Below, one piece after another: positions 9,753-58,573 of a DNA stretch of 64,000 bases; positions within the stretch are counted from its first letter, which is position 1; each line of letters opens with the position of its first letter. The DNA is from Candidatus Omnitrophota bacterium (GTDB lineage: Bacteria; Omnitrophota; Gorgyraeia; Tantalellales; Tantalellaceae), in the NCBI GenBank assembly GCA_049642015.1, contig JBAROI010000054.1, positions 553 to 64,552 on the forward strand, in the 5' to 3' direction. The position numbers and the translations under genes were made by a program. Below the pieces are notes generated by a model. It was not told where the DNA came from, did not search any database, and worked only from the letters and a program-made list of their open reading frames with translations.

Positions 9753-9760
9753 CAGGTTTC

Positions 9761-37173: not shown

Positions 37174-38145
37174 ATGGATAAAAGATTTATAAATGAACTG
37201 AAAGTCAATGAGCAGGTCGACTCTTTTTTTGTGATGAGCAAAAAAGAGCTTAAGCTTACAAAATATGACAAACCTTATTTGCAGATAGCTTTGTCAGACA
37301 AGACGGGAAGAATAGAGGCGCGCCTCTGGGATAATGCCGAAAAATACAACGAAGCGGCGGAAACGGGGGACATCATCCACGTGAAAGGTACGGTGGATAA
37401 GTTCCGGGAAGAAAAACAGTTTAAACTGGATTTTATCGCGAAGGCGGACGAAAGAGCTTTTCGCTTTGAAGACATGGTTCGTGTAGCGGAGAACAGGGAT
37501 AAGCTTTATAAGGACACTCTTTCGTATCTTAAAGAGATAAAAAATCCCTGGATAAAAAAACTGTCGGAAAAATTCACCGAGGACGAGGAGCTTATGGCTC
37601 TTTTCGAGGATGGCATTGGGGGAAAAAGCTGGCATAACGCCTATATCGGCGGGCTTTTAGAGCATACTTACGAAGTGATGCATATAGTTGACCAGATGTG
37701 TAGTCTTTATCCCGAAGTTGACAAGGATATAGCCATATTCGGGTCATTTATTCACGACATCGGAAAGGTGCATGAGCTTGACGTGAAAAAGATGGAATAC
37801 ACGGTAGAAGGAGGGCTGGTAGGACACATAGCCATAGGGCACAAGTTGCTCATGGAGAAGATCCAGACTGTTCCGGATTTCCCGCGAAGCCTCTCGCTCA
37901 GGCTCGAGCACATCATTTTGAGCCATCACGGGGAGTACGAGCAGCAGTCGCCGGTTCTTCCCAAGACGCTTGAAGCAACGATAATATACCAGACGGACGA
38001 GTTGGTTTCCCAGACGAACGCGATAAAGGAGATACAGATCGCCCAAAAGGAAGAGGGCAAAGATTGGAGCCATTTCGTCACGATAAAAAACCGGAAATAT
38101 TACATTAAAGACGCGCAGGACGAGGACTGGAAAATTGAATCGTAA
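37174..38145 (+). CDS. yhaM: OB-fold + HD-domain 3'-5' exonuclease, YhaM-like
   Basis: N-terminal OB fold then HD motif (HNAYIGGLLEHT...HDIGK...SHHGEYE). Confidence 0.6.
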   Translation: MDKRFINELKVNEQVDSFFVMSKKELKLTKYDKPYLQIALSDKTGRIEARLWDNAEKYNEAAETGDIIHVKGTVDKFREEKQFKLDFIAKADERAFRFEDMVRVAENRDKLYKDTLSYLKEIKNPWIKKLSEKFTEDEELMALFEDGIGGKSWHNAYIGGLLEHTYEVMHIVDQMCSLYPEVDKDIAIFGSFIHDIGKVHELDVKKMEYTVEGGLVGHIAIGHKLLMEKIQTVPDFPRSLSLRLEHIILSHHGEYEQQSPVLPKTLEATIIYQTDELVSQTNAIKEIQIAQKEEGKDWSHFVTIKNRKYYIKDAQDEDWKIES

Positions 38146-38503
38146 GGATTTTGAAAAACTCGTAATAAAGGCCCTTGAAGACCTGCCGGAAGCTTTCAAA
38201 CGCAGCCTTAATAATGTTGACGTCGTAATAGAGGACGAACCCACCCCCGATCAGGCAAATAAAGTAGACGCCGCCCACCGCCGCATGGTCCTGGGTCTTT
38301 ATCAGGGCGTGCCCCTTGCCAGGAGAAACCATCTCTACGGCATGGTGATGCCGGATAAAATATCCATTTTCCAGAAGAACATTGAAAGGGTATGCAAGAC
38401 GGAAGAAGACATAGTACGCCTGGTCACGCATACTGTCGAACACGAGCTGGCGCATCACTTTGGAATATCGGATAAACGCCTTAAAGAATTAGGTATCTAT
38501 TGA
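38135..38503 (+). CDS. small zincin-like metallopeptidase-fold protein (DUF1025-like)
   Basis: HTVEHELAHHFG HExxH motif in ~120-aa protein. Confidence 0.55.
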   Translation: MNRKDFEKLVIKALEDLPEAFKRSLNNVDVVIEDEPTPDQANKVDAAHRRMVLGLYQGVPLARRNHLYGMVMPDKISIFQKNIERVCKTEEDIVRLVTHTVEHELAHHFGISDKRLKELGIY

Positions 38504-39588
38504 GAGGATGAGACCCTGATATTGTCTATGTAGATAGGGCCCGAATAAGCGGGTTTCCTGTTTGATTCTATCCTCAGCGCTATTTTCCGCACATCGGACC
38601 TGAAGGCTTCGTCGACTTTCGCCCGTTTCCAGTCGCTTCCCCCTTCCAGCATGTTCGCGCTTATGGTTGTCCACTCTCCGGGGACCAGACGCACGCTGCG
38701 CGACATTTCAACAAATCGCCAGTCTCCGCCGACCGTAAGGATGAGGCGGGCCCTGAGGCCCTCCGGACAATCGGCAGGCACGAAAACATCCGCCTGGATA
38801 CCGTCGTAGTTGCTGAGATCAAGATATTGCTGCACTTCTATCAGGGCCGCGGTCCAATGGCCGCCGGAGAATTCCGCGATGAGTTCAAGGCCGCCGCTCC
38901 CGCTATTCGCGAAGGCGTCCGTCCTCTTAAGGGACCTGGCGACGTGATCCGGCTTATCGACTTCCCAGGCAGGTATCTCCCAGCCATCTTCGTCGACCTC
39001 GAAATCATACAGAGTTTTAACGTTTCGCGCGGCGGGTGCCGTCACGGGAGGCTTGGGTTTAGTTTTAGGTTTTGGAATTTCAATAAATGCGGCTTCAGGC
39101 CGCGAAGCGTGTATTTTATTGGGCAGGTCCTGCTTTAGCCTGGCAACGAACTCCTGCGCTGTTTTGGGCAGGGAAAACCTTATCGTTTCAGACGACGGGT
39201 GCATCACCCCCGGCAAAACGATCTGTATTTTTTCGGACGAAGAGACCCGTTTTAATTTAGCCGTTAAGTCCTGTATTATCCTGGGTGGCTTGGTTTGCTT
39301 TCTGGAAGCGATCCCCGGTTCAACGTTAATGTTTACGTTGAAGACGATACGTTTTCCGCGCAGTAGATAACCTGCCGCGAAAATGATACTGCTGATTATC
39401 CAGAGGATAAAAAGGAAGGTTAACGGAGACCAACGGCGTCGAGGGGGTGCATACTGCACCTTTTCCTGTTGGGCCTTTTCCTGTTGAGCTTTTTCCTGAA
39501 TGGGGGACGAGGGTTTATCCTCTGTATTTCCGAAATATGTACGTGACAGTTCAATATCTATTTGGTCACGCGTTTTATGCTCTCCCAT
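38497..39588 (-). CDS. membrane-anchored protein with Pro/Lys linker and C-terminal carbohydrate-binding-module-like beta-sandwich domain
   Basis: Start with SD on minus strand; N-terminal Gln/Lys repeats, one TM, PKPKTKPKPP linker; C-terminal ...IYIDNIRVS typical of CBM-like domains; divergent from ParA-CBM48 gene. Confidence 0.45.
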   Translation of the reverse strand: MGEHKTRDQIDIELSRTYFGNTEDKPSSPIQEKAQQEKAQQEKVQYAPPRRRWSPLTFLFILWIISSIIFAAGYLLRGKRIVFNVNINVEPGIASRKQTKPPRIIQDLTAKLKRVSSSEKIQIVLPGVMHPSSETIRFSLPKTAQEFVARLKQDLPNKIHASRPEAAFIEIPKPKTKPKPPVTAPAARNVKTLYDFEVDEDGWEIPAWEVDKPDHVARSLKRTDAFANSGSGGLELIAEFSGGHWTAALIEVQQYLDLSNYDGIQADVFVPADCPEGLRARLILTVGGDWRFVEMSRSVRLVPGEWTTISANMLEGGSDWKRAKVDEAFRSDVRKIALRIESNRKPAYSGPIYIDNIRVSSSQ

Positions 39589-39676
39589 AGTCGTAAATCT
39601 CCCGTGCCAAGCTATTTACAATTTGATTATATTAAAGTTTTACATAATAAGTCAAGAATTTATTTACGCGCCATTA

Positions 39677-39705
39677 TTTACATATCATAATTAATATGAT
39701 ATACT
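39677..39705 (+). promoter_or_regulatory. putative promoter (TTTACA-17-TATACT) with 8-5-8 palindromic operator in the spacer
   Basis: tttaca 39677-39682; tatact 39700-39705; palindrome atatcata-attaa-tatgatat at 39682-39702. Confidence 0.5.
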
Positions 39706-39738
39706 TTGCACAAAAAGAAGCGCGAAGCGGGAGTATAC

Positions 39739-40782
39739 ATGAGAGTAATATCCGTTGCCAACCAGAAGGGGGGCTGTGGAAAAACAACCCTGGCCACGAA
39801 CATAGCGGCGTCCTTTTCAGGCCTGGGAAATGAAACCCTACTGATCGACCTGGATCCCCAGGCGCACGCCACGTTCGCCATGGGTTATTGCAAGAAATCG
39901 TCCGACCGCAGGACGTCGTACGATATTTTCCGGGCCCATTTTGAAGGCTCGCCCATACCGTTTGACCAGATCGTCGCGACTGATAGAAGCAAGCTATCGT
40001 TTATATCCGCGAATATGATGCTCAGCGCGGCCGAGATCAATCTCGGGAGCGTGAACGGAGCGGCGGCCATATTGTCCCGCACTCTGTCCGATCCTTTTTT
40101 TGAAAAATACGAATACATCATTATTGACTCACCCCCCAGCTTCGGCTTTTTAACGCTTAATTCCATGTATGCCGCGGATGTGATCCTGGTCCCCATGGAC
40201 CTGGGCTACTTTTCTCTGAACAGCGTTGACAGTGTGCACCGGGTGACGGGCCTGTTGAATTCCGAAACAGGGAGGAACCCTTCGGTATTTTTTGTCCTGA
40301 ACCTTTTTGACAAGCGTTCAAGGTTCGCAAAAAGATTCGAGAACGACGCGATCAAGAAGCTTGGGCCTTATCTTCTTTCCACCAGGATCCACTCAAGCGT
40401 GAGGCTGAGAGAGGCCGCCGAAACCGGCAAGACGATATTCGAACATGATCCCGAATCCACGTCAGCGCTTGATTTTTGCAACCTGACCAAGGAGCTTTTG
40501 ACCATTGAGGATGAGGACATAAATACCAGCATAAAGCAATTCTTTATCCACGCCCCGCAGGCCAGCCACGTGTACGTGCTTGGGGACTTTAACGGATGGC
40601 AGAAATCGCAAGCCAGCCGTCTTTCCCGGCTGGAGGACGGCAGCTGGTCGGCCCACATTATGCTGGATCGAGGAAGATACCGTTACAAGTACCTCATAGA
40701 CGATCAATGGATCCACGATTCTAAAAACCCCCAGAAAGAGACTAATCCGTTTGGCAGCATTGACTCAGTTCTGACAGTTTAA
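39739..40782 (+). CDS. ParA/MinD-family ATPase fused to C-terminal CBM48 (AMPK-beta glycogen-binding) domain
   Basis: Deviant Walker A VANQKGGCGKTT, ParA core; C-terminal HVYVLGDFNGWQ...YRYKYLIDDQWIHDSKNP matches AMPK1_CBM/CBM48; start chosen at MRVISVANQ (39739). Confidence 0.75.
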   Translation: MRVISVANQKGGCGKTTLATNIAASFSGLGNETLLIDLDPQAHATFAMGYCKKSSDRRTSYDIFRAHFEGSPIPFDQIVATDRSKLSFISANMMLSAAEINLGSVNGAAAILSRTLSDPFFEKYEYIIIDSPPSFGFLTLNSMYAADVILVPMDLGYFSLNSVDSVHRVTGLLNSETGRNPSVFFVLNLFDKRSRFAKRFENDAIKKLGPYLLSTRIHSSVRLREAAETGKTIFEHDPESTSALDFCNLTKELLTIEDEDINTSIKQFFIHAPQASHVYVLGDFNGWQKSQASRLSRLEDGSWSAHIMLDRGRYRYKYLIDDQWIHDSKNPQKETNPFGSIDSVLTV

Positions 40783-40863
40783 GGAAAGAGGTAGGCATGT
40801 CACAACCTGTAATCTATGATAAAAATAAACAGGACATAGTTGTTCGCTATAACCGGTAGTGGT

Positions 40864-41283
40864 ATGCAAAAATTCAACGTAAGCCCAGCAAAAGAAAAAA
40901 ATCTTAAAGACAAAATGTGCCGCTTCGGCATAAAAGAGCGCGACCTGACGGAGAAGTTCATCAGGTCAAGCGGCAAAGGCGGACAGCACGTCAATAAAAC
41001 GTCTACCTGCGTATACCTGAAGCATAATCCGACGGGTATAGAGGTCAAATGCGGCAAAGAGCGCTCTCAGGTCCTGAACCGGTTTCTGGCCCGCAGGATG
41101 CTGGCGGGGAAGATCGAGACGATGGTGCTGGGAAAAGAAGCGGAAGAAAAAAAGCGCATTGCGAAAATACGCAGACAAAAGCGCAAAAGGTCCAAAAGGG
41201 CAAAAGAAAAAATGCTCGCTACCAAGAAAAGACGAGCTGAGAAGAAGACCCTGCGCAAGAAAGTAGGACTTGAGAACGATTAG
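40864..41283 (+). CDS. arfB: alternative ribosome-rescue factor ArfB (peptidyl-tRNA hydrolase, GGQ)
   Basis: SGKGGQHVNKT motif, short size, Lys/Arg-rich C-terminal tail; start uncertain (40840 TTG, 40864 ATG or 40915 ATG). Confidence 0.7.
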   Translation: MQKFNVSPAKEKNLKDKMCRFGIKERDLTEKFIRSSGKGGQHVNKTSTCVYLKHNPTGIEVKCGKERSQVLNRFLARRMLAGKIETMVLGKEAEEKKRIAKIRRQKRKRSKRAKEKMLATKKRRAEKKTLRKKVGLEND

Positions 41284-41293
41284 TAGCGCTCTG

Positions 41294-41393
41294 ATAACCG
41301 GTGAAGGGTACTCCGCGCGCAGTTTCCGAAAAATAGTAATCTTAGGTCATTGTTTTCGGACTGTTTGAGCACGGAGTACCCTTCACCGGTTAT
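41294..41393 (+). repeat. family-2 long hairpin element (copy 1)
   Basis: 22-bp perfect outer stem ataaccggtgaagggtactccg/cggagtacccttcaccggttat around conserved core cgcgcagtttccgaaaaat...ttttcggaNtgtttgagcacgg; begins 11 nt after arfB stop. Confidence 0.6.
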
Positions 41394-41430
41394 TAAGGCG
41401 CCGCTAGTACGGGAACGACAAGGGTAGCAG

Positions 41431-42993
41431 ATGGGCAAGAAGATCAGGGAGACTTGGGGCACGCGCCTGGGCGTTATAATGGCTGTTGCCGGATCGGCGG
41501 TAGGCCTGGGCAATTTCCTGCGTTTTCCGGTGCAGGCGGCAAAGAACGGAGGGGGCGCGTTCATGATCCCCTACTTTGTTGCGCTCCTCCTGGTAGGGAT
41601 ACCGCTGATGTGGATAGAGTGGTCCATAGGGCGCTACGGCGGCGGATTTGAGCATTCCTCGGCTCCCGGCGTGTTCCACAGCCTGTGGGAAAAGAACCGC
41701 TTTATCAAGTATTTCGGGGTCATAGGGATATTCGGTCCGCTTGTGATCATGATCTACTACACCTATATCGAATCGTGGACCCTTGCCTACAGCTTTTTCT
41801 CGGTCACGGGAAGATATTCCGGCCTGACGGATCGCTCCTCCATGGAGGCATTTCTATCCGCCTTTCAGGGGTTGACAAAGAATCAGTATTTTTCCAGCAT
41901 AGCCCCGGCGTACATATTTTTTCTGATAACGTTCGCGATCAACATGGCGGTCCTGTCTTACGGTATCCGCGGGGGGATAGAACGGTTCTGCAAGTTCGCG
42001 ATGCCGACCCTGCTTATCTTCGGCATCATACTGGCCGTCCGGGTCCTCAGTCTCGGAGTCCCTGATCCCGCGAAACCCGCATGGAACGTGGCAAACGGAC
42101 TGGGATATCTGTGGAACCCGGATTTTTCCCGTCTTAAAGAAGCGAGGGTATGGCTTGCGGCAACCGGGCAGATATTCTTTACGCTGAGCGTAGGCATCGG
42201 CGTTATACTGACGTACGCCAGTTACCTTAGAAGGGGTGACGACGTGACGCTGTCGGGACTTACCGCGGTAAGCATGAACGAAACGGCTGAAGTCGTCCTT
42301 GGCGGCAGCATCGTGATCCCCGCGGCTTTTATATTTTTTGGTCCGATGGCGATAGGAGCAATAGCCAACTCCGGCGCTTTCAATCTTGGATTTGTAACAA
42401 TGCCTCTGATCTTTTTACACATGCCTTTTTCGGAACTTTTAGGATTTTTGTGGTTCGCCCTTCTTTTTCTTGCCGGCGTCACTTCGTCCGTTTCCCTCGC
42501 GCAGCCGGCCATCGCTTTCCTCGAAGATGAATTCGACATATCGCGGAAAAAGGCCGTGCTGCTTTTCGGTATAGTGACTTTTACCCTGTGTAACGGCGCG
42601 ATATTTTTCCTCGGAAGGGGAGTAGTGGACGAGCTGGATTTTTGGGGCGGCACATTTTGCCTGGTGCTTTTTGCCGCGATCGAAGTGATCTTGTTCGGAT
42701 GGATATTCGGGATAGAGAAGGCGTGGGAGGAAGCTCATCACGGGGCCGACATGAGAATTCCGGGAATCTATAAATACATAATCAAGTACGTAACGCCGGT
42801 ATTTCTTCTGGCGGTTCTTGCAGCGTGGTTCTTCCAGGATTGGCTGCCCATCATGCGTATGGATAACATTTCACCGGAGAACGCTCCTTATATCATGGCA
42901 ACGCGAGTAGGCCTCTTGCTGCTTTTTCTCGCGCTTGCGATAATGGTCAAGGTCGCGTGGAAAAAACGGAGAATAAAGGGGAATCCTGTATGA
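41431..42993 (+). CDS. sodium-dependent transporter, NSS (SNF) family
   Basis: 12-TM; N-terminal GTRLGVIMAVAGSAVGLGNFLRFP signature. Confidence 0.85.
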   Translation: MGKKIRETWGTRLGVIMAVAGSAVGLGNFLRFPVQAAKNGGGAFMIPYFVALLLVGIPLMWIEWSIGRYGGGFEHSSAPGVFHSLWEKNRFIKYFGVIGIFGPLVIMIYYTYIESWTLAYSFFSVTGRYSGLTDRSSMEAFLSAFQGLTKNQYFSSIAPAYIFFLITFAINMAVLSYGIRGGIERFCKFAMPTLLIFGIILAVRVLSLGVPDPAKPAWNVANGLGYLWNPDFSRLKEARVWLAATGQIFFTLSVGIGVILTYASYLRRGDDVTLSGLTAVSMNETAEVVLGGSIVIPAAFIFFGPMAIGAIANSGAFNLGFVTMPLIFLHMPFSELLGFLWFALLFLAGVTSSVSLAQPAIAFLEDEFDISRKKAVLLFGIVTFTLCNGAIFFLGRGVVDELDFWGGTFCLVLFAAIEVILFGWIFGIEKAWEEAHHGADMRIPGIYKYIIKYVTPVFLLAVLAAWFFQDWLPIMRMDNISPENAPYIMATRVGLLLLFLALAIMVKVAWKKRRIKGNPV

Positions 42994-43156: not shown

Positions 43157-43390
43157 ATGGAAAAAGACGTCGCAGTGTTTGAAAAGAACAAATACCAGGA
43201 CGTGAAATTCCGGATCTCGGAATATCAGGGCAATGATGTAATAGATATCCGGATCTGGACCCAACCCCCGCAGGGAGGAGAAAAGGTTCCTACCGGCAAA
43301 GGAGTGAACATCAATGTCAAACTTTTTCCAAAGCTGAAGGAATCCGTTCTTAAGCTGGAGAAAGATCTCGCGGAAGCCAGCATGCTTTGA
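43157..43390 (+). CDS. PC4/YdbC-like ssDNA-binding protein
   Basis: ~75-aa protein with KYQDVKFRISEYQGNDVIDIRIW...GKGVNIN pattern reminiscent of PC4-like fold; tentative. Confidence 0.5.
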   Translation: MEKDVAVFEKNKYQDVKFRISEYQGNDVIDIRIWTQPPQGGEKVPTGKGVNINVKLFPKLKESVLKLEKDLAEASML

Positions 43391-43430
43391 GTGGCCTCGC
43401 TATATAATGCGAAGCCCGTAAGGAATACAC

Positions 43431-43868
43431 ATGCAAAAACGCGAGAGGAGACATTTTATAAGGCATCTTCTTGTTAACCCTCTTGAATTCAAGGTTACCG
43501 AGGAGGAAGAGCCGGAGAAGACGGAGACGATAAACGTAAGCGAGGGCGGACTTCTTTTCATGGCAAAAAAAGACGTCGCACCCGGCACGGTTATAAGGAT
43601 CCAGATGCCGCTCTACGAAAAGACGTTCAACATAAAAGCGAGCGTCGTACACAGTGACAAAGATTCCACATCCGGCCTGTATAAGGTCGGCGTTAAATTC
43701 TTGACCTACTCTGACGCTTTCAAAGTCAAGCTCATCGAACAGATCTATCTAATAGAAGAATATCGTGTTCTTCGCTCACTTCAGCTGGGCAAAGACATGT
43801 CCCTTAAAGAAGCCTCAAGCGAGTGGATAAAAAAGTACTCGGAAACCTTCGAGAAACTTTACTGGTAA
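43431..43868 (+). CDS. PilZ-domain protein (putative c-di-GMP receptor)
   Basis: N-terminal RRHFIR (RxxxR) and downstream D-S-EGG motif. Confidence 0.65.
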   Translation: MQKRERRHFIRHLLVNPLEFKVTEEEEPEKTETINVSEGGLLFMAKKDVAPGTVIRIQMPLYEKTFNIKASVVHSDKDSTSGLYKVGVKFLTYSDAFKVKLIEQIYLIEEYRVLRSLQLGKDMSLKEASSEWIKKYSETFEKLYW

Positions 43869-44031: not shown

Positions 44032-44066
44032 TGGGTTGTAGTGGAATAAAGTGGAGGAGAGTGGAG
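44032..44066 (+). promoter_or_regulatory. putative MraZ operator: four TGGRN direct repeats at 10-bp phasing
   Basis: tgggt 44032, tggaa 44042, tggag 44052, tggag 44062; matches known MraZ TGGGN-N5 repeat architecture. Confidence 0.55.
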
Positions 44067-44506
44067 TGTTCTACGGCGAATACCTACATGCACTTGATAA
44101 AAAAGGGCGGATAATAATTCCCTCAAAATTCCGGGATGTTATTCAGGAAATGTGTATAGAAAAGTTCTACATTACCCGCGGCCTGGATGAGTGTCTTTTT
44201 ATGTTCTCCGAGAGTGAATGGAAGGCCCAGGAGAGCAAGTTCAAGACGATGCCGTTCACCAAACAGAAGGCAAGACAGTTTAACCGTTTATTCTTTTCAG
44301 GCGCCGTTGAAGCCGTTCCCGACAAGCAGTGGAGGATACTGGTACCCGGTTATCTGAAGAATTACGCGAAGCTCTCAAAGAATATCGTTATAGTCGGCAT
44401 ATCTACACGCATAGAGATCTGGGATAAGGACAAGTGGGTTGAATTTTATAAATCCTCAAAGGCGAATTACGAGGAGATTGCCGAACAATTGATGGATTTT
44501 GAATAA
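44066..44506 (+). CDS. mraZ: transcriptional regulator MraZ
   Basis: Start at GTG 44066 gives MFYGEY... matching canonical MFRG MraZ N-terminus and leaves GGAGGA SD; two duplicated MraZ half-domains. Confidence 0.8.
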   Translation: MFYGEYLHALDKKGRIIIPSKFRDVIQEMCIEKFYITRGLDECLFMFSESEWKAQESKFKTMPFTKQKARQFNRLFFSGAVEAVPDKQWRILVPGYLKNYAKLSKNIVIVGISTRIEIWDKDKWVEFYKSSKANYEEIAEQLMDFE

Positions 44507-44526
44507 AAAAAAGGGGGGGACCGTCA

Positions 44527-44717
44527 TGTACAGGCGATACGCTGTTAAATTAAATAAAAGACAAGTTGAATTTATTAATTGCGTGAATATGGTGGAGAGG
44601 ATAAAAAAAGCGCGGGCCCTGCCTTCGGGCATCGATCATCTGGGGGTCAAGTGCTATCAGATCTCTTCATCGGGGACCGGAAAAAACACATACTACACTC
44701 TCAAAGACTGTGTTTGA
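44527..44717 (+). CDS. hypothetical small protein inserted between mraZ and rsmH
   Basis: 62-aa ORF with strong SD (AAGGGGGGGA) 6 nt upstream; fills 200-nt mraZ-rsmH gap; no homology recognised. Confidence 0.3.
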
Positions 44718-45618
44718 GGAATGGGGAAAGCAGTTGCATTATCCGGCACTTTTGAGAGAGACGATCGAGAACCTTAACCTTAAGGCCGGTGATGTGGTAT
44801 TAGACGCGACTTTGGGGGGCGGAGGACACGCGAAAGAGATCCTGGGCAGAATTCTTCCGGGCGGCCGGTTAATAGGGGTAGACAGGGACCCGGAAGCCTT
44901 AAAAAGAGTCCAGGACGAATTACGGGACCATAAAGATACAATAACTTACGTCAGCGAGGATTTCAGGGAGATCGACGAGGTCTTCCATTCTCTGGGCATC
45001 GGGTCGATCGACGGGGCGATATTCGATCTTGGCATGTCATCTTTTCAGGTAGACGACGAAAAACGGGGTTTCAGCTTTTTGAAGGACGGCCCCCTGGACA
45101 TGAGGTTCGATCGGCGCAAGGGAATGACGGCCGCCGACGTGGTCAATAAATTTGGCCGGGAAGAACTGGCCGAGATCATAAAAGAATACGGGGAAGAGAG
45201 GCACGCCCGGTTTGTTGCCGGGGCCATTTGCTCGGCAAGGAAGCAGAAAAAGATCGAGACCACGGGTGAGCTTAGAGATATTATTGCCAGGGCAATAGGG
45301 CGTAAGTATAAAAGACAAAGATTGCATCCGGCGGCAAGGACGTTTCAGGCGATACGGATATACGTTAACGACGAACTCGGGGCGATAAAAGAGGCGATAA
45401 GAGAGACGGTTCCTTATTTGAGGGCGAAAGCGAGAATATGTATTATTTCTTTTCATTCGCTTGAGGACCGCATCGTAAAAAACGCCTTCAGGGACATGAA
45501 GAAGGAAGGCGTGCTGAATGTCCTTACAAAAAAGCCGATAACGCCGGGAAGGGAAGAAGTCAGGGACAACCCGAGATCAAGAAGCGCTAAATTGCGCGTA
45601 GCGGAGAAAGCGGCATGA
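44710..45618 (+). CDS. rsmH: 16S rRNA (cytosine1402-N4)-methyltransferase RsmH
   Basis: DATLGGGGHAKEIL SAM-binding motif; canonical dcw position. Confidence 0.85.
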   Translation: MFEEWGKQLHYPALLRETIENLNLKAGDVVLDATLGGGGHAKEILGRILPGGRLIGVDRDPEALKRVQDELRDHKDTITYVSEDFREIDEVFHSLGIGSIDGAIFDLGMSSFQVDDEKRGFSFLKDGPLDMRFDRRKGMTAADVVNKFGREELAEIIKEYGEERHARFVAGAICSARKQKKIETTGELRDIIARAIGRKYKRQRLHPAARTFQAIRIYVNDELGAIKEAIRETVPYLRAKARICIISFHSLEDRIVKNAFRDMKKEGVLNVLTKKPITPGREEVRDNPRSRSAKLRVAEKAA

Positions 45619-45995
45619 GAGTATACAGATATATTTGTACAGGAGTGATCGTGACGATAATGGCTGTTGGTTATGTCCATCAGCGCGTTGAAATAGTCAA
45701 AACAGGGTACAACCTCCAGAAAGACAGGGAGTACCTGTCCCGCCTCGTTGACCAGAATTCGAAATTAATGTATAATCTTTTCAAACTTGAATCTCCCAGG
45801 AATCTGTTCGCTTCAATGAACGACGAAAAAATAAAGTTCGCACGCCATACGGCAAGGCAGGAAGACGGTCGGACATACCGGACAAGCCGCGTCGTGACCG
45901 TTCCCGGCTACAATGTAGCAAGCGCGGGTAAGGGTTTTGTCGGCCGGTTTCTGGATTTTTTCGTGGCAGATGCTGAAGCGAGTCCCCGTAACTGA
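45615..45995 (+). CDS. ftsL: cell-division protein FtsL-like
   Basis: Single TM + coiled-coil, between rsmH and ftsI; ATGA coupling with rsmH. Confidence 0.5.
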   Translation: MRVYRYICTGVIVTIMAVGYVHQRVEIVKTGYNLQKDREYLSRLVDQNSKLMYNLFKLESPRNLFASMNDEKIKFARHTARQEDGRTYRTSRVVTVPGYNVASAGKGFVGRFLDFFVADAEASPRN

Positions 45996-46025
45996 TTTTT
46001 AGGACCGTGACCAGAATGAGGTAAC

Positions 46026-47696
46026 ATGTTCAAAGCGCGCCAATATCTTGTGCTCTTTCTTTTTATGTTTTTCCTCCTGGCGCTGCTGGCGAGATTGTTC
46101 TATCTGCAGATCGTCGGCTATCAGAAGTTTTCAGGCATGGCGGCCGAGCAGCATAACAGGGTCATGAGGATCGATCCGCGAAGGGGCGCGTTGTGCGACA
46201 GCAACATGGAGCCGCTGGCCATAAACCTGGACTCACCGAGTATTTTTGCGGACCCGCGAAACATAGAAGATCCCGAACACACGGCCGACATACTTTCGGA
46301 TGTACTCGACATCGACCGGGAGATCCTCCTGGAGCGTCTCAAGAAAGATAAATCTTTTGCCTGGGTCAAGAGGAAAGTGAGTGAAGAAAAGGCCGACAGG
46401 GTCAAGGCACTTGGTTTAAAAGGCGTGCACTTCCTTAACGAGCGTAAAAGAAGCTATCCCAACGATAACATGGCTTCGCATGTCGTCGGATTTGCCGGCA
46501 TTGATAATACAGGGCTGGAAGGGGTCGAGCTGCAGTATGATGAGAAACTGAAGGGGAAGCCGGGATGGCGGTATCTTGTTAAAGACGCCAGGAGAAGGAC
46601 CGTCCTGTACAACGAGAGAGATTCCATTCCGCCGCAGAACGGGTATAACATCATCCTTACCATCGACAGCGTTATTCAGTTCATAGTCGAGGAAGAGCTC
46701 AGGAAGATGGTCTCGAGATATCATGCCGATAGCGCTTCGGCTATTGTCATGGACCCCTTTTCGGGCAGGGTCCTGGCGATGGCAAATTACCCCGACTACG
46801 ATCCTAATTCTTTTGACGAAGTATCGACCTCTTTTATCAAAAATACGAGCGTCTCAAGCGTTTTTGAGCCAGGTAGTGTGTTTAAAATAGTGACCGCGAG
46901 TGCCGCCCTGAATGAAAAAAAGTTCGAGACGGATGACGTGATTTACTGTGAAAATGGCAACTACAGGGTCGCCGGAAGAGTATTGCACGATTTTCATAGT
47001 TACGGGGATCTCTCTTTCAGGGAAGTCATAACAAAGTCAAGCAATATCGGGACCGTGAAGGTAGCGCGGGAACTGGGAGAAGAGACTGTTTACGAGTATA
47101 TCGGCAAATTCGGCTTCGGAAGGAAGACCGGGATCGACCTTCCCGGAGAGGTAAACGGCATAAGCAGGTCCCCTTCCGTCTGGTCGGGAAGCGATATTAC
47201 GACTATACCGATCGGCCAGGGCATCGCGGTGACCCCGATACAGCTGGTGCGTGCTATAAGCGTTATCGCCAACGGTGGTTACCTGGTTACGCCGCACGTG
47301 GTTGACCGGATCATGACCTGGGAGGGAGAATTTTACAGTAAGTACGATCCGCCGAAAAAAGCGCAGGTTTTAAGCAGGGATACTTGCAAAAAAATGAAGG
47401 ACATCCTGCGGGGGGCTGTGACTAGCGGGACGGGAAGATACGCCCAGTCCAAGTTTTACACTACGTGCGGTAAAACAGGAACGGCTCAAATGATAAATCC
47501 CAAAGGCGGTTACTATCCCAATAAGTATGTCGCTTCGTTTATAGGGTTCGCCCCGGAGGAAAGGCCCCTTGTGAGCATTGTCGTAACCGCGAAGAACCCT
47601 CATCCTGTTTATTTCGGAGGCACCGTCGCCGGACCGGTCTTCAAAAAGATAGCAGAAAGGACTTTACAGTACCTTGGGTCAGGCAAAAATGAGTAA
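46026..47696 (+). CDS. ftsI: peptidoglycan D,D-transpeptidase FtsI (PBP3-type)
   Basis: N-terminal TM, PBP dimerisation domain, SxxK (SVFEPGSVFK) and SxN/KTG (KTGTA) transpeptidase motifs. Confidence 0.85.
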   Translation: MFKARQYLVLFLFMFFLLALLARLFYLQIVGYQKFSGMAAEQHNRVMRIDPRRGALCDSNMEPLAINLDSPSIFADPRNIEDPEHTADILSDVLDIDREILLERLKKDKSFAWVKRKVSEEKADRVKALGLKGVHFLNERKRSYPNDNMASHVVGFAGIDNTGLEGVELQYDEKLKGKPGWRYLVKDARRRTVLYNERDSIPPQNGYNIILTIDSVIQFIVEEELRKMVSRYHADSASAIVMDPFSGRVLAMANYPDYDPNSFDEVSTSFIKNTSVSSVFEPGSVFKIVTASAALNEKKFETDDVIYCENGNYRVAGRVLHDFHSYGDLSFREVITKSSNIGTVKVARELGEETVYEYIGKFGFGRKTGIDLPGEVNGISRSPSVWSGSDITTIPIGQGIAVTPIQLVRAISVIANGGYLVTPHVVDRIMTWEGEFYSKYDPPKKAQVLSRDTCKKMKDILRGAVTSGTGRYAQSKFYTTCGKTGTAQMINPKGGYYPNKYVASFIGFAPEERPLVSIVVTAKNPHPVYFGGTVAGPVFKKIAERTLQYLGSGKNE

Positions 47697-49149
47697 TACA
47701 GATCTGAATAAATTAGTAGATTCCGGATTTATCAGCAGAGATAACCTCAAGATCGATTCGCGCGAGGTCATAGAGGGTGATATTTTCGTCGCCCTGAAAG
47801 GGACCGCGTGCGACGGGCACGATTTTATCGGTGAAGCTCTTGCCAGGGGCGCCGCCGGGGTAATATGCGAACGCGAAGTGCCGGGGCTCCTCGAAGCCGA
47901 CAGCGCGAAGCTGATAAAGGTCGAAAACGTGAGGAGGGCGCTGGCGCAGGCGGCGAAACGGATATTTGAAGACCCTTCCGAAAAACTGGAAGTTTACGGT
48001 GTTACGGGAACAAACGGGAAAACAACGACGATTTTCCTGATCGACGGCATTCTTTCCGCCGCGGGGAAAAACGGCGGCCTGGTAAGCACGGTCTTTACGA
48101 AGACGTCCGATGATGCTATTACCCGTTCGTCCATGACAACGCCGGACGCGGTCACGCTGAACCGGTTATTGTCAGAAATGGTCTCCGGCGGGAAAAAGGC
48201 TGTTGCCCTGGAGATATCCAGTCACGCGCTTTCTCAAGGAAGGACGCTCGGCATAGGCCTGGACGGCGCTGTTTTTACGAATATCACGCCCGAACACCTT
48301 GATTATCACGGCAATATGGAGAATTACCTCAGGGATAAGTCCAGGATCTTCGATAACCTTAAGTCCGGCGGGACAGGTGTCATAAACCTGGACGATCCGA
48401 CTCTCAAGGAACTTAAGGGAAAATTAAACCTTCCGCGCCTTATCTCTTACGGCACATCTCCGGAAGCGGATATAAGGGCAAAAAACATAAAGACCGGACC
48501 CGATGGATTGAGGTTTGATCTGGTAATGAAAGATGGCCGCGGAGTAAGCATCAGTTCAGGCCTGATAGGAAGACATAATGTTTATAACATGATGGCGGCG
48601 GCGGCTGTTCTTTCCGGGAACGGCATCAACGCGGAAGATATTAAAAAAGGTCTGGAAAGCGCTCAGGCGGTTCCGGGGAGGATGGACGCGGTGAGAAGCG
48701 GAGCCCCATTCAAGGTTTTCGTGGACTACGCCCACACGCCTAATGCTCTTGAAAACGCTTTGAAGTGTCTTCGCTCTATCGCCGGACGGCGGCTGATCTG
48801 CGTCTTCGGGTGCGGAGGAGACCGGGACCGGGCAAAAAGGCCCGTTATGGGGAGTCTCGCGTCAGAGATCTGCGACCACGTGATCGTGACCAGCGACAAT
48901 CCCAGAACGGAGGACCCCGAAGATATTATACGGCAGATCGAAAAGGGGATGCCTGATAACGGTAAATATAGTATAATATTACAACGACGCGAAGCCATTC
49001 GGAAAGCCTTGAAAATGGCGGATGACAGCGACATAGTTATTATAGCCGGTAAAGGACATGAAGATTACCAGATAATAGGCGAAAAGGTCCTGCACTTTGA
49101 CGACAAGGAAGTCGCCGGCGAAATATTGACAGAACTTGGATATGATTGA
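47689..49149 (+). CDS. murE: UDP-N-acetylmuramoyl-L-alanyl-D-glutamate--2,6-diaminopimelate ligase
   Basis: Mur ligase GVTGTNGKTTT; start set at MSNTDL (47689), which aligns with the E. coli MurE N-terminus. Confidence 0.85.
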   Translation: MSNTDLNKLVDSGFISRDNLKIDSREVIEGDIFVALKGTACDGHDFIGEALARGAAGVICEREVPGLLEADSAKLIKVENVRRALAQAAKRIFEDPSEKLEVYGVTGTNGKTTTIFLIDGILSAAGKNGGLVSTVFTKTSDDAITRSSMTTPDAVTLNRLLSEMVSGGKKAVALEISSHALSQGRTLGIGLDGAVFTNITPEHLDYHGNMENYLRDKSRIFDNLKSGGTGVINLDDPTLKELKGKLNLPRLISYGTSPEADIRAKNIKTGPDGLRFDLVMKDGRGVSISSGLIGRHNVYNMMAAAAVLSGNGINAEDIKKGLESAQAVPGRMDAVRSGAPFKVFVDYAHTPNALENALKCLRSIAGRRLICVFGCGGDRDRAKRPVMGSLASEICDHVIVTSDNPRTEDPEDIIRQIEKGMPDNGKYSIILQRREAIRKALKMADDSDIVIIAGKGHEDYQIIGEKVLHFDDKEVAGEILTELGYD

Positions 49150-50518
49150 ACTTACGGTAAAGGACATAGCGAGAGTTACGGACGGAAAGCTTGTCTCGAA
49201 AGACGAGAACGCCGTTGTGTGGGGATTTTCAATAGACTCGAGGACGATATGTCCGGGTGAATTCTTTATCGCCGTCAAGGGGCAGAATTTCGACGGCCAT
49301 GACTTTATCGGCGCGGCCGTTCAGAAAGGAGCCGCGGGCATCCTTGCTGAACGCGATGTAAGTTCTGAATATGGCGGGAAGATCGATCACGTTCTCACGG
49401 TTGAAGATTCGCGCGAGGCCATGGGCCGGATAGCGGCTGAGATAAGAAACCGCGCGCGTATTCCCGTGGTGTGCGCGACCGGCACCAGCGGCAAGACCAC
49501 GCTGAAAGAGATGCTTTCGTGCCTTTTGTCTTCGAAGTACAACGTCCTGAAAAGCAAGAAGTCCTATAATAACATCATAGGTTTAAGCCTGACGTTATTC
49601 GGGCTTAGCCCGAGTCATGACGTAGCCGTTCTGGAATTGGGAACCAACCGCCCGGGCGAGATCTCGGACCTCGCCCAGATAGCGCGTCCGTCCGTGTGCG
49701 TTATCACCAATATCGGCGATGGGCACCTTGAATTTTTAAAGGACCGGGAGGGAGTCTTTGCCGAAAAGGTGAAACTGCTGGATTTTCTGAAAGATTCAGG
49801 CGCGGCGTTTTTGAACAGCGATGACCCGCTTCTAAAGAAGGTAAGCGCGGAAGAAGGCGCGATAAGATTTTTCGGCACTTCCGGTGATCCCGATTTCCGG
49901 ATCACTGATATAAAAAAGGAGAAAAGCGGATATAGTTTTTCTCTCGGCGGAAGCGCTTTTTTTGTTCCCCTGGAGGGAGAACATAACGTTTACAACGCGG
50001 CTGCCGCGATCGCGGTATCGAGGCATCTGGGCGTAGGCGATGAGGAGATACGTTCAAAGATGAAGGAGATGACCCTGCCCGGCATGCGCCTCGAAAGGGT
50101 GGAGGCAGGCGGCGTGACGTTTATCAACGATTCTTATAACGCCAATCCCGATTCTTTCAAGTGCGCCCTGGAAGTTCTGCGGGAAAGCCCCACGAAAGGA
50201 AAAAGGATCGTGGTGGCCGGCGACATGATGGAACTGGGCGCTAAAACCACAAGCTTTCATGAAATAATAGGAAAGAGCATAGCGGGGAAGAATATCGATT
50301 TTCTGATCACTATAGGCGGCATGGCTGAACATATTGCCCGCGGAGCGCTGGAGTCGGGCATGGCGAGGGAAAATGTTGTTCGCGTAGGAAGCCATGAAGA
50401 AGCAGCTGATATAATCCGGCGCGTAGCGAAAGCCGGCGATATCGTATTGGTAAAAGGCTCGCGGGCCAGCAAAATGGAGGAAGTTCTCAGATGTTTTACC
50501 ACCTACTGTATCCACTGA
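49136..50518 (+). CDS. murF: UDP-N-acetylmuramoyl-tripeptide--D-alanyl-D-alanine ligase
   Basis: Mur ligase GTSGKTT, DSYNANP motif. Confidence 0.85.
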   Translation: MDMIELTVKDIARVTDGKLVSKDENAVVWGFSIDSRTICPGEFFIAVKGQNFDGHDFIGAAVQKGAAGILAERDVSSEYGGKIDHVLTVEDSREAMGRIAAEIRNRARIPVVCATGTSGKTTLKEMLSCLLSSKYNVLKSKKSYNNIIGLSLTLFGLSPSHDVAVLELGTNRPGEISDLAQIARPSVCVITNIGDGHLEFLKDREGVFAEKVKLLDFLKDSGAAFLNSDDPLLKKVSAEEGAIRFFGTSGDPDFRITDIKKEKSGYSFSLGGSAFFVPLEGEHNVYNAAAAIAVSRHLGVGDEEIRSKMKEMTLPGMRLERVEAGGVTFINDSYNANPDSFKCALEVLRESPTKGKRIVVAGDMMELGAKTTSFHEIIGKSIAGKNIDFLITIGGMAEHIARGALESGMARENVVRVGSHEEAADIIRRVAKAGDIVLVKGSRASKMEEVLRCFTTYCIH

Positions 50519-51579: not shown

Positions 51580-51581
51580 CC

Positions 51582-57373: not shown

Positions 57374-57374
57374 A

Positions 57375-57463
57375 TTGTGTGCGGTATTCCGCGCGCAGTT
57401 TCCGAAAAATCGTATTCTAGTTTAGCGTTTTTCGGATGTTTGAGCACGGAATACCGCACACAA
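57375..57463 (+). repeat. family-2 long hairpin element (copy 2)
   Basis: Outer stem ttgtgtgcggtattccg/cggaataccgcacacaa (different sequence, same pairing) around the same conserved core as 41294..41393; begins 2 nt after murB stop. Confidence 0.6.
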
Positions 57464-57486
57464 GCTGCCGGGGTGCTAAGATTACT

Positions 57487-58565: not shown

Positions 58566-58573
58566 ATAAATAA

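What the first reader, a model, noticed from the sequence alone, without database searches (positions are those of the whole stretch)
38497..40782. ParA/MinD ATPase fused to a CBM48 glycogen-binding domain, divergently paired with a membrane-anchored CBM-like protein
What the sequence shows:
- ORF 39739..40782 has a complete ParA-type deviant Walker-A ATPase core (KGGCGKTT).
- Its last ~85 residues (HVYVLGDFNGWQ...YRYKYLIDDQWIHDSKNP) match the AMPK-beta/CBM48 starch and glycogen-binding module.
- The divergent minus-strand gene 38497..39588 encodes a single-pass membrane protein with a PKPKTKPKPP linker and a C-terminal CBM-like beta-sandwich ending ...IYIDNIRVS.
- The 150-bp shared region holds a promoter (TTTACA-17-TATACT). 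Its spacer is an 8-5-8 palindrome (atatcata-attaa-tatgatat), which looks like an operator.

Established knowledge: ParA-like ATPases position cargos such as plasmids, carboxysomes (McdA) and chemoreceptor arrays, using cargo-specific adaptor domains.

Inference: this may be a ParA-type positioning or segregation system whose cargo is a glycogen-like polysaccharide granule or a carbohydrate-decorated envelope structure. The CBM48 domain would take the adaptor role. To my knowledge this has not been described.
Basis: partly seen in the sequence, partly recalled or inferred. Interest (0 to 1): 0.8.

Follow-up and report, generated by a model that had tools for sequence, protein, structure and literature searches.

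The report
Glycogen-binding ParA ATPase with membrane partner
An uncultured Omnitrophota bacterium encodes a ParA-type positioning ATPase fused to a glycogen-binding module and paired with a small membrane protein, which looks like an undescribed system for organising glycogen stores inside the cell.

Summary
ORF 39739..40782 encodes a 347-aa Soj-like ParA ATPase. All catalytic motifs are intact, and it carries a C-terminal CBM48/AMPK-beta glycogen-binding module that passes Pfam thresholds and keeps the sugar-contacting Trp/Lys/Trp.

The fusion is not an artefact. More than 100 full-length orthologs exist in Candidatus Omnitrophota, with remoter ones in Latescibacterota, Thermodesulfobacteriota and Planctomycetota MAGs.

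Gene context ties it to glycogen:
- In nine Omnitrophota loci it sits in a GH57 amylopullulanase – membrane protein – ParA-CBM48 operon.
- In a Latescibacterota MAG it heads a glycogen synthase / branching enzyme / phosphorylase cluster.

The neighbouring membrane protein is a real partner. In 31 of 38 loci, an adjacent gene encodes the same architecture: a conserved cytoplasmic N-terminal helix (L-[AS]-x-x-[YF]-[FL]), one TM helix, and a CBM-fold beta-sandwich. That sandwich is extracytoplasmic, so it cannot share a cytoplasmic cargo with the ParA.

The promoter is conserved. The "operator" palindrome is not.

Best reading: an ATP-switched module that anchors or partitions glycogen granules. 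The positioning function itself is untested. No description was found in the searchable literature. I class it as a new variant of the ParA/MinD kind.

The parts
39739..40782 (+). ParA-CBM48 gene (347 aa plus stop)
   Evidence: The AlphaFold model has pLDDT 90 and pTM 0.87.
39739..40503 (+). Soj-type ParA ATPase domain (aa 1-255). It has the deviant Walker A KGGCGKT (K10, K15), D37/D39 and Walker B D130.
   Evidence: Pfam AAA_31/CbiA. Best PDB sequence matches are ParA 8ray (E 1.5e-30) and T. thermophilus Soj 1wcv. Foldseek gives target-normalised TM 0.88-0.91 and rmsd about 2 A to Soj. The catalytic residues are invariant in 51 and in 38 sequences.
40504..40524 (+). Linker between the ATPase and CBM48. 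It is short in this clade. In alignment columns spanning window aa 251-270, relatives have 17-55 residues with no conserved sequence.
40525..40779 (+). CBM48 / AMPK-beta-type glycogen-binding module (aa 263-347)
   Evidence: AMPK1_CBM 45.9 bits and CBM_48 28.7 bits. phmmer to AMPK beta1 CBM structures, including 1z0n, gives E 5e-8. W287, K317 and W324 align to the AMPK beta1 sugar-binding W100, K126 and W133; both Trp are invariant, K317 is K or R, F338 is F/Y/L and D342 is D/N.
38497..39588 (-). Partner gene: a type-II single-pass membrane protein (363 aa)
   Evidence: It is found only in Omnitrophota (95 hits). It lies divergently adjacent to ParA-CBM48 in eight clade-I loci, the window included (seven distinct sequences; L004 and L005 are copies), and a giant gene separates the two in L001.
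39529..39567 (-). Conserved cytoplasmic N-terminal helix of the partner (aa 8-20, DQIDIELSRTYFG). It is the candidate ParA-contact peptide.
   Evidence: It is the only conserved stretch in an otherwise variable N-terminus. It is modelled as a helix at aa 9-18. An equivalent L-[AS]-x-x-[YF]-[FL] motif occurs in all 31 partner proteins.
39355..39426 (-). Transmembrane helix of the partner (aa 55-78)
   Evidence: Model helix 55-78 at pLDDT 82-96. Hydropathy maximum at aa 58-76.
38506..39024 (-). Extracytoplasmic CBM-fold beta-sandwich of the partner (aa 189-361)
   Evidence: pLDDT 95-98. Foldseek matches 1wky, CBM27, CBM11 and CBM28. Lipoprotein-type paralogs carrying the same domain lie in GH113/ABC-sugar-transporter operons.
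39677..39705 (+). Promoter of the ParA-CBM48 gene: TTTACA-17-(TG)ATATACT
   Evidence: It is conserved in register in L004, L009, L010 and L012, and in weaker form in L001 and L011.
39626..39655 (-). Back-to-back promoter-like site for the partner gene: TTGACT-18-TATAAT (11 of 12 matches)
   Evidence: This is a consensus match only.
39682..39702 (.). 8-5-8 palindrome in the promoter spacer. It is probably not a functional operator.
   Evidence: It is present in the window but absent from all seven other clade-I intergenic regions examined. Chance frequency is 6.4%.

Best explanation
This is a two-gene module that couples cytoplasmic glycogen (alpha-glucan) particles to an ATP-driven ParA switch.

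The ParA-CBM48 protein is an active Soj-like ATPase. On binding ATP it forms a sandwich dimer, so each dimer presents two flexibly tethered CBM48 modules that grip glycogen. This step is inferred from the family.

The dimer then docks on a support, for which there are two candidates:
- The conserved cytoplasmic N-terminal helix of the co-encoded single-pass membrane protein. This would recruit the ATPase to the inner membrane, stimulate its hydrolysis, or both, much as MinE, ParB and McdB peptides or the CapA tail do for their ATPases.
- The nucleoid, especially in lineages that keep both Soj DNA-binding arginines.

Cycles of ATP binding and hydrolysis would then anchor, space or partition glycogen granules, together with the GH57 enzyme co-expressed in many relatives, so that each daughter cell inherits stores.

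The partner's outer CBM-fold domain ties the module to an envelope or external glycan. Its ligand is unknown.

Shown: the domain architecture, intact catalytic and sugar-binding residues, conservation of the gene pair, linkage to glycogen genes, and the partner's topology.
Inferred: glycogen binding, the peptide-ATPase contact, and the positioning outcome.
For: 1. Active ParA. The deviant Walker A (K10, K15), D37/D39 and D130 are invariant. The fold matches Soj at TM about 0.9.

2. Real CBM48. It passes the Pfam gathering scores and matches AMPK beta CBM structures at E 5e-8. The Trp/Lys/Trp sugar platform is conserved across 38-51 sequences. The linker is variable (17-55 residues over window aa 251-270), as expected for a tethered module.

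3. Glycogen context.
- A cytoplasmic GH57 lies 595-793 bp upstream of ParA-CBM48, on the same strand and with the partner gene between them, in 8 loci; it lies 1.7 kb upstream in L013. Its closest solved structure is the amylopullulanase 8zyi/9jlq at E 6e-88 (PMC12106739). It has no signal peptide.
- In L041, ParA-CBM48 heads a co-directional run: a CBM48-only protein, two GT4/GT5 starch-synthase-like transferases, GH57 plus a branching-enzyme C-domain, an alpha-glucan phosphorylase and a second GH57.
- Omnitrophota MAGs are inferred to make glycogen (PMC8542988).

4. Partner. In 31 of 38 loci an adjacent gene has the same layout: an N-terminal helix motif, one TM helix and a beta-rich C-domain. 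It is divergent in the window's clade and abutting on the same strand in the distant clade. The families link by hhalign: A-B 97%, B-C 96%, I-A 65%, I-B 76%.

5. Specificity of the peptide. Paralogs not adjacent to a ParA lack the N-terminal peptide. They are lipoproteins in glycan-uptake operons.
Against: - No experiment exists. Glycogen binding, dimerisation, the peptide contact and positioning are all inferred.
- The window itself has no glycogen gene within 64 kb.
- Aadella gelida carries the fusion (P0042), yet it is listed with trehalose synthesis only, not glycogen synthesis, in a 91%-complete MAG.
- In classical ParA systems the cargo carries the ATPase stimulator, not the ATPase itself. 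A ParA bolted to its cargo may simply tether rather than position.
- The window's clade keeps only one of the two Soj DNA-binding arginine positions, so nucleoid binding is uncertain there.
- Homology between the window's partner and the distant-clade partners rests on 65-76% hhalign probabilities.
- L041 and L013 lack the partner.
- The ligand of the partner's outer domain, and why it is needed, are unexplained.
Confidence: 0.45

Rival explanations
1. Glycogen-status sensor or regulator. As in AMPK, the CBM48 reports glycogen or malto-oligosaccharide load. It gates the ParA ATP switch, whose real output is something else: localising or regulating the membrane partner and an associated glycan-capture apparatus, or controlling access of GH57 and phosphorylase to the granule. 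Nothing is moved.
For: - The CBM48 is closest to the AMPK beta regulatory CBM.
- The partner's outer domain derives from glycan-uptake lipoproteins. That suggests a link between external glycan capture and internal storage.
- The whole-protein pTM of 0.87 in the short-linker clade suggests the CBM packs against the ATPase.
- Co-transcription with a degradative GH57.
Against: - Linkers of up to 55 residues with unconserved sequence in most relatives argue for a tethered module rather than an allosteric one.
- No obvious output domain or regulated target is conserved across clades other than the partner.
Confidence: 0.2
2. Envelope polysaccharide assembly or export regulator, in the manner of BcsQ or of split BY-kinases (CapA/CapB). 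A ParA/MinD-fold ATPase is activated by a short cytoplasmic peptide of a membrane protein. It organises secretion of an alpha-glucan-type polymer through the AlgE-like outer-membrane porin, while the CBM48 holds the nascent chain.
For: - An Alginate_exp (AlgE-like) beta-barrel gene lies upstream on the same strand in 7 distant-clade loci (Pfam). A copy is in the window at 11166..12608.
- The partner has an extracytoplasmic CBM fold.
- There are weak CBP_BcsQ, cellulose_yhjQ, eps_fam and CapB-type hits.
Against: - No synthase, Wza/Wzx/Wzy, Bcs or Alg gene was seen in the loci whose neighbours were annotated.
- There is no C-terminal tyrosine cluster.
- The BcsQ and eps family scores are far below their cut-offs.
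- The linked enzymes (GH57 without a signal peptide, GT5, phosphorylase) belong to cytoplasmic glycogen metabolism.
- The porin is 27 kb away in the window.
Confidence: 0.12
3. It is simply the chromosomal partition ATPase (Soj) of these bacteria with an accessory domain, acting with a ParB encoded elsewhere.
For: - The ATPase domain's closest solved relatives are chromosomal Soj/ParA proteins.
- The equivalent of the Soj R189 DNA-binding arginine is R or K in 47 of 51 homologs and in 26 of 38 fusion loci.
- The gene is chromosomal, next to the dcw cluster.
Against: - It is only about 30% identical to Soj.
- It scores 107.5 bits against a cut-off of 180 for the NCBIfam ParA_partition model.
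- No ParB-like GERRxRA box occurs in any credible gene across the 38 loci, 533 kb plus the window. No ParBc Pfam hit appears in the annotated neighbourhoods.
- The conserved neighbour is a membrane protein, and the conserved operon mates are glycogen enzymes.
Confidence: 0.05

Closest known systems
Chromosomal Soj/ParA (type Ia ParA; e.g. T. thermophilus Soj 1wcv/2bek, H. pylori Soj 6iub)
   Same: The fold is the same (target-normalised TM 0.85-0.91). The deviant Walker A with signature lysine, Walker A' and Walker B are all present. The R189-equivalent basic residue is mostly kept.
   Different: - About 30% identity.
- Cys13 and His43 are family-specific invariants (KGGCGKT and DPQAHAT).
- It has a C-terminal CBM48.
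- No parB is nearby. The partner is a membrane protein.
McdA/McdB carboxysome positioning, and other cargo-specific ParA systems (PomZ, ParC, PpfA)
   Same: A ParA-fold ATPase dedicated to a non-DNA cytoplasmic cargo. McdA is among the best structural matches.
   Different: In those systems a separate adaptor on the cargo (McdB and its equivalents) both binds the cargo and stimulates the ATPase. Here the cargo-binding module is fused to the ATPase, and the candidate stimulator sits in the membrane. This comparison draws on my own knowledge of those systems.
AMPK beta-subunit carbohydrate-binding module (CBM48)
   Same: Sequence match at E 5e-8. The sugar-binding W100/K126/W133 positions are conserved, with L146 replaced by F and N150 by D or N.
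   Different: It is attached to a P-loop ATPase instead of a kinase scaffold, and it is bacterial. Whether it acts as a tether or as a sensor is unknown.
MinD-MinE, and split BY-kinases (CapA/CapB)
   Same: A ParA/MinD-fold ATPase working at the membrane and controlled by a short peptide of a partner. In CapA that peptide is the juxtamembrane tail of a membrane protein. CapA1/CapB1 (4jlv) appears among the PDB hits.
   Different: - There is no C-terminal amphipathic membrane helix (the CBM48 occupies that end).
- There is no MinC or MinE.
- There is no tyrosine cluster.
- The family scores fall far below their cut-offs.
PhaM/PhaF-type tethering of PHB granules to the nucleoid (functional analogue; my knowledge)
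   Same: A solution to the same problem: equal inheritance of storage granules.
   Different: Those are non-ATPase DNA-binding phasins, and no ParA is involved.

Membership tests
ParA/MinD (deviant Walker A, SIMIBI) ATPases | Deviant Walker A KGGxxK[ST] with signature lysine, Walker A' aspartates, and Walker B | tested here: met
   KGGCGKT is present. K10, K15, D37, D39 and D130 are invariant in 51 sequences; K10 and K15 are also invariant in the 38 fusion loci.
ParA/MinD (deviant Walker A, SIMIBI) ATPases | Soj/MinD alpha/beta fold | tested here: met
   Model pLDDT is 90. Foldseek gives target-normalised TM 0.88-0.91 to Soj and ParA.
ParA/MinD (deviant Walker A, SIMIBI) ATPases | ATP-dependent sandwich dimer, with partner-stimulated hydrolysis | not testable with these tools
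   Needs biochemistry or multimer modelling. A candidate stimulating peptide was identified.
Chromosomal ParABS (Soj) | Adjacent parB gene, or a ParB partner | tested here: not met
   No ParBc Pfam hit in the annotated neighbourhoods. No GERRxRA box in any credible gene across the 38 loci. This regex test is crude.
Chromosomal ParABS (Soj) | Score above the curated cut-off of the ParA partition equivalog | tested here: not met
   NF041546 scores 107.5 bits against a cut-off of 180.
Chromosomal ParABS (Soj) | Non-specific DNA-binding arginines (B. subtilis R189 and R218; residue numbers from my knowledge) | tested here: inconclusive
   The R189 equivalent (aa 222) is R or K in 26 of 38 loci. 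The R218 equivalent (aa 241) is R or K in 20 of 38, and it is T, S, A or P in the window's clade.
CBM48 / AMPK1_CBM | Profile match above the gathering score | tested here: met
   AMPK1_CBM 45.9 bits vs GA 26.8. CBM_48 28.7 bits vs GA 22.4.
CBM48 / AMPK1_CBM | Sugar-platform residues (two Trp and a Lys) | tested here: met
   W287 and W324 are invariant. K317 is K or R.
CBM48 / AMPK1_CBM | Binding of glycogen, starch or cyclodextrin | not testable with these tools
   Context evidence only.
MinD | C-terminal amphipathic membrane-targeting helix; minC/minE context; equivalog score | tested here: not met
   The C-terminus is a beta-sandwich. minD_bact scores 40 bits vs a cut-off of 212.9. No Min genes appear in the neighbourhoods.
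BcsQ (cellulose synthase localisation ATPase) | Equivalog score and bcs operon context | tested here: not met
   TIGR03371 scores 64.2 bits vs a cut-off of 157.85. No bcs genes are nearby.
BY-kinase (Wzc/CapB) | C-terminal tyrosine cluster, and a polysaccharide co-polymerase partner | tested here: not met
   The C-terminus is a CBM48. eps_fam scores 32.7 bits vs a cut-off of 108. The partner has one TM helix and a CBM fold, not a PCP fold.
CBM27/CBM11-like galactose-binding-like beta-sandwich (the partner's C-domain) | Fold match to solved CBMs | tested here: met
   Foldseek: 1wky at E 4e-11 and rmsd 2.3 A; CBM27 1pmh at E 3e-8. The sequence profile is only borderline: Mann_GBD_bact 26.1 bits vs GA 27.

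The most novel reading that the evidence does not exclude
Bacteria have a dedicated ATP-driven system for positioning and inheriting glycogen granules. In it, the ParA ATPase carries its own cargo-binding module, and it is controlled by the cytoplasmic tail of a transmembrane glycan-binding protein. This would be an inverted ParA logic that physically couples capture of external glycans at the envelope to the placement of internal carbon stores.
Probability: 0.3. Interest if true: 0.85.

Novelty: new variant of a known kind. Interest (0 to 1): 0.7.

Why it matters
ParA/MinD ATPases are the general-purpose positioning engines of bacteria. Known cargos include chromosomes, plasmids, carboxysomes, chemoreceptor arrays and division sites. 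No ParA system for glycogen turned up in the literature I could search, and as far as I know how bacteria place and inherit glycogen granules is unresolved.

This family offers a directly testable candidate. It also has an unusual design: the cargo-binding domain is fused to the motor, and the likely regulator is a membrane protein. That design would broaden the accepted ParA mechanism.

It also supplies a compact two-protein module, with a defined peptide motif, that could be reconstituted in vitro or in E. coli. That route avoids the fact that Omnitrophota cannot be cultured.

Tried and rejected
- **Operator palindrome.** It is not conserved in the seven other clade-I intergenic regions, and its chance frequency is 6.4%. 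Rejected as an operator.
- **Rfam scan of 38000..41500.** No match at E <= 1. There is no known riboswitch or leader.
- **Link to cell division through the adjacent dcw cluster.** The synteny holds only in the window's clade. The distant clade is not near dcw genes. Treated as inherited gene order.
- **Exhaustive representative search with the C-terminal profile.** The list is swamped by proteins with tandem CBM48 repeats, so no usable count of the fusion family came out of it.
- **First motif regex.** It was too strict and missed most partners. It was replaced by neighbour listing and hydropathy analysis.
- **L039 492-aa downstream protein with a similar N-terminal motif.** It has no TM helix, no ParA similarity and no relatives in the loci. 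Left as an unexplained aside.
- **Modelling the ParA-peptide complex.** Both structure-prediction jobs went on the two monomers, and the tool offers no multimer mode.
- **Literature searches** for ParA + CBM48 / glycogen positioning / Omnitrophota found nothing relevant. The library holds open-access papers and bioRxiv only, so absence there is not proof.


Full report
**Observation**

The plus-strand gene (39739..40782, 347 aa) starts MRVISVANQKGGCGKTT. Its Pfam scores are:
- AAA_31: 134.9 bits.
- CbiA: 63.9 bits.
- AMPK1_CBM: 45.9 bits (gathering score 26.8) over aa 272-346.
- CBM_48: 28.7 bits (gathering score 22.4).

The minus-strand gene (38497..39588, 363 aa) has one hydrophobic helix, the PKPKTKPKPP linker and the ...IYIDNIRVSSSQ end. 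Its only Pfam hit, Mann_GBD_bact, falls just short of threshold (26.1 vs 27).

The promoter TTTACA-17-TATACT, with a TG extension, is at 39677..39705. A back-to-back TTGACT-18-TATAAT site serves the divergent gene.

The 8-5-8 palindrome lies at 39682..39702.

**The fusion is real and conserved**

A search of 5.8 billion proteins returned about 100 full-length proteins at 60-81% identity. Every one that carries a source name is from Candidatus Omnitrophota MAGs, and all carry both domains. A second tier at about 40% identity has the same architecture. That rules out a frameshift or an assembly join.

The window's partner protein is 100% identical to an NCBI Omnitrophota MAG protein (P0121).

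**The ATPase**

The closest solved structures by sequence are chromosomal ParA/Soj proteins: 8ray at E 1.5e-30 and T. thermophilus Soj at 3.7e-28.

The AlphaFold model is confident (pLDDT 90, pTM 0.87). Its ATPase domain superposes on Soj with target-normalised TM 0.88-0.91 at about 2 A. McdA, MinD and BcsQ match less well.

K10, K15, D37, D39 and D130 are invariant in 51 homologs. Cys13 and His43 are invariant family-specific markers shared by both identity tiers, which argues for a single origin of the fusion.

The protein scores well below the curated cut-offs for ParA_partition, MinD, BcsQ and BY-kinase models.

**The CBM48**

On its own, the C-terminal 87 residues hit AMPK beta1/beta2 CBM structures at E 5e-8. 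They also hit pullulanase, branching-enzyme and SEX4/LSF CBM48s.

In that alignment, the AMPK beta1 residues I know to contact sugar (W100, K126, W133, L146, N150) pair with W287, K317, W324, F338 and D342. Across 38 fusion loci:
- The two Trp are invariant.
- K317 is K or R.
- F338 is F or Y.
- D342 is D or N.

Over the alignment columns spanning window aa 251-270, the 38 fusions have between 17 and 55 residues with no sequence conservation. That is what a flexible tether looks like.

**Distribution and context**

I scanned GTDB species representatives with a C-terminal-specific profile and then analysed the loci locally with HMMs. This gave 38 loci with a full-length fusion. They fall into two groups:
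- A close clade: the window, L001-5 and L008-12.
- A distant clade of 27 loci. Most are Omnitrophota; some of these MAGs are labelled "uncultured Planctomycetia". It also includes one MAG each from Thermodesulfobacteriota, Latescibacterota and Planctomycetota.

In the close clade the whole neighbourhood is syntenic:
UvrD-like – HD/OB – Zincin_1 – partner (minus strand) – ParA-CBM48 – RF-1 – ... – PC4 – PilZ – MraZ – dcw cluster.

The distant clade is not near dcw genes. I therefore treat the dcw proximity as inherited gene order.

**The partner gene**

In the close clade the membrane-protein gene lies divergently 49-270 bp upstream in eight loci, the window included. These are seven distinct sequences, because L004 and L005 are copies of one another. 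In L001 a 2082-aa giant gene has been inserted between the pair.

The distant clade gave no hit to the partner's C-domain HMM. Even so, the gene immediately upstream, on the same strand and abutting the ParA start (offset -5 to -46), encodes a 187-271-aa protein of the same design. It has an N-terminal L-[AS]-x-x-[YF]-[FL] helix, a basic stretch, one TM helix and a beta-rich C-domain that often ends ...VYIDNI.F.K.

Counting both clades, 31 loci have such a partner. Of the other seven:
- L002 and L003 are short copies of the L001 arrangement.
- L035 is too short a contig to tell.
- L013, L039 and L041 have no such gene in the sequence held.
- L005 duplicates L004 and was not tabulated separately.

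Profile-profile comparison links the partner families as follows:

| Pair | Probability | E-value | Region aligned |
|---|---|---|---|
| A–B | 97% | 2e-11 | C-terminal domain |
| B–C | 96% | 2e-9 | C-terminal domain |
| Window family–A | 65% | 6e-5 | C-terminal domain |
| Window family–B | 76% | 2e-5 | N-terminal motif region |

Adjacency has persisted through sequence divergence this deep, and through a change of strand and gene order. That is strong evidence of functional coupling.

**Partner topology and fold**

The model gives a helix at aa 9-18 (the conserved motif), a TM helix at 55-78, and a beta-sandwich at 189-361 with pLDDT 95-98.

The sandwich matches carbohydrate-binding modules: mannanase CBM 1wky (E 4e-11), then CBM27, CBM11, CBM28, CBM16 and CBM22.

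Short paralogs carry the same domain directly behind a lipobox-type signal peptide. They lie in GH113 / F5_F8 / ABC-sugar-transporter / GH94 / GH116 operons, with no ParA nearby. K/R residues are enriched on the N-terminal side of the TM helix, 157 against 84 over 31 proteins.

The domain is therefore extracytoplasmic. Only the short N-terminal tail can meet the cytoplasmic ATPase. The conserved peptide occurs only in the ParA-adjacent versions.

**Link to glycogen**

In the distant Omnitrophota clade, a 527-aa GH57 gene lies upstream of the partner on the same strand. Its end is 595-793 bp from the ParA-CBM48 start in 8 loci, and 1.7 kb away in L013. This GH57 has no signal peptide and begins with the HMHQP motif. 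Its nearest solved relative is a GH57 amylopullulanase that cuts alpha-1,4 and alpha-1,6 bonds (E 6e-88; PMC12106739).

In the Latescibacterota locus L041, ParA-CBM48 is the first gene of a co-directional run:
1. A stand-alone CBM48 protein.
2. Two GT4/GT5 starch-synthase-like transferases.
3. A GH57 with a branching-enzyme C-domain.
4. An alpha-glucan phosphorylase.
5. A second GH57.

Published genome analyses infer glycogen synthesis for most Ace Lake Omnitrophota. One of them, Tantalella remota, carries the fusion. Aadella gelida also carries it but is listed with trehalose synthesis only (PMC8542988).

The window itself holds no glycogen gene.

**Regulatory region**

The -35 element and the extended -10 are conserved in register across the close clade. 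The palindrome's left arm is unique to the window, and its right arm is simply the conserved TGnTATACT. An inverted repeat of this size appears in 6.4% of shuffles.

I do not consider it an operator. No Rfam family matches the region.

**Interpretation**

The best-supported reading is an ATP-switched, glycogen-binding ParA that works with a membrane-anchored partner to anchor, space or partition glycogen granules.

What is shown:
- The architecture.
- Intact catalytic and sugar-binding residues.
- Gene-pair conservation.
- The partner's topology.
- Operon linkage to glycogen enzymes.

What is inferred:
- Actual glycogen binding.
- The peptide-ATPase contact.
- Nucleoid binding. The R189-equivalent position is R or K in 26 of 38 loci. 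The second Soj arginine position is lost in the window's clade.
- The positioning outcome.

The design departs from classical ParA systems because the cargo-binding module sits on the ATPase itself. A simple ATP-gated tether is therefore as plausible as a Brownian-ratchet positioning mechanism.

The rivals are:
- A glycogen-status sensor on AMPK logic.
- A BcsQ- or BY-kinase-like regulator of envelope polysaccharide export. This is suggested by an AlgE-like porin gene upstream in seven distant-clade loci, but no synthase or export genes support it.
- A decorated chromosomal Soj. This is disfavoured by about 30% identity, sub-threshold family scores, and the absence of any ParB signature in 533 kb of flanking sequence.

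**Novelty**

Five literature searches found no description of a ParA-CBM48 protein or of a ParA system for glycogen. Databases label these proteins only "AAA family ATPase" or "chromosome partitioning protein".

I class it as a new variant of the ParA/MinD kind. It merits experimental follow-up.

Noticed in passing
window 44051..61504: The dcw cluster runs MraZ (44051-44506), then genes syntenic with RsmH, FtsI, MurE, MurF and MraY in relatives, then FtsQ (58574-59350) and a short FtsA-like protein (59567-60619, 350 aa). It is followed directly by proC (60704-61504) and a PNP-family gene. No ftsZ follows ftsA. Whether this Omnitrophota genome has ftsZ elsewhere is unknown.
   Followed up: partly
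window 39705..39738; L004 about 10001-90..10000; L009, L010, L012 5' UTRs: A short word resembling (A/C)CACAAAATGT recurs, once or twice, between the conserved -10 and the ParA-CBM48 start codon in the close clade. In the window it reads GCACAAAAAG. It could be a regulatory site or an RNA element. There is no Rfam match.
   Followed up: no
window 18807..19139; L014 10502-10870, L033 10485-10889, L022 1830-2216 and others: A small protein with a very K/R-rich N-terminus and a conserved C-terminal domain of about 75 aa (..VTHYFPKV.AAV.KL...L..GD.I.IKGHTTDF.Q.V.SMQID..P...A.KG.EIG..V) lies 13-1108 bp downstream of ParA-CBM48 in 10 distant-clade loci. It has a homolog 20 kb upstream of ParA-CBM48 in the window. 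It has no Pfam or NCBIfam hit. It may be a nucleoid-associated protein and a possible third component.
   Followed up: partly
L001 1..9809: Two giant genes (at least 2012 aa and 2082 aa, with no Pfam hits) sit between the partner gene and ParA-CBM48 in one Omnitrophota contig of 746 kb. This is in keeping with the giant genes reported for this phylum (bioRxiv 10.1101/2023.11.21.568195).
   Followed up: no
window 11166..12608; L020, L023, L024, L029, L032, L033 upstream of ParA-CBM48: An Alginate_exp (AlgE-like) outer-membrane beta-barrel gene lies upstream of ParA-CBM48 on the same strand in seven distant-clade loci. In six of them it is within 2.5 kb; in L014 it is 6.5 kb away. A copy is present 27 kb away in the window.
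   Followed up: partly
L039 1882..3360: In a Thermodesulfobacteriota MAG, the gene downstream of ParA-CBM48 encodes a 492-aa soluble protein whose N-terminus (KKQLEEIAHLYFSS) resembles the partner motif. It has no TM helix, no Pfam hit and no relatives in the other loci.
   Followed up: partly
P0216, P0218, P0232, P0242, P0268: Very large proteins (1,800-7,400 aa) contain 14-20 tandem CBM48-like repeats. They dominate the exhaustive profile search. Their nature and origin were not examined.
   Followed up: no
window 43157..43868 and syntenic positions in L001, L004: A PC4-like (eukaryotic transcriptional coactivator p15 family) 77-aa protein and a PilZ-domain protein form a conserved pair immediately upstream of mraZ in this Omnitrophota clade.
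   Followed up: no
L042, L044, L051, L055, L061-L063, L066, L070, L072: In Latescibacterota, Krumholzibacteriia and related MAGs, one or two stand-alone CBM48 proteins of about 125-150 aa follow a CBM48-containing protein of 650-700 aa in a recurring three-gene arrangement.
   Followed up: no
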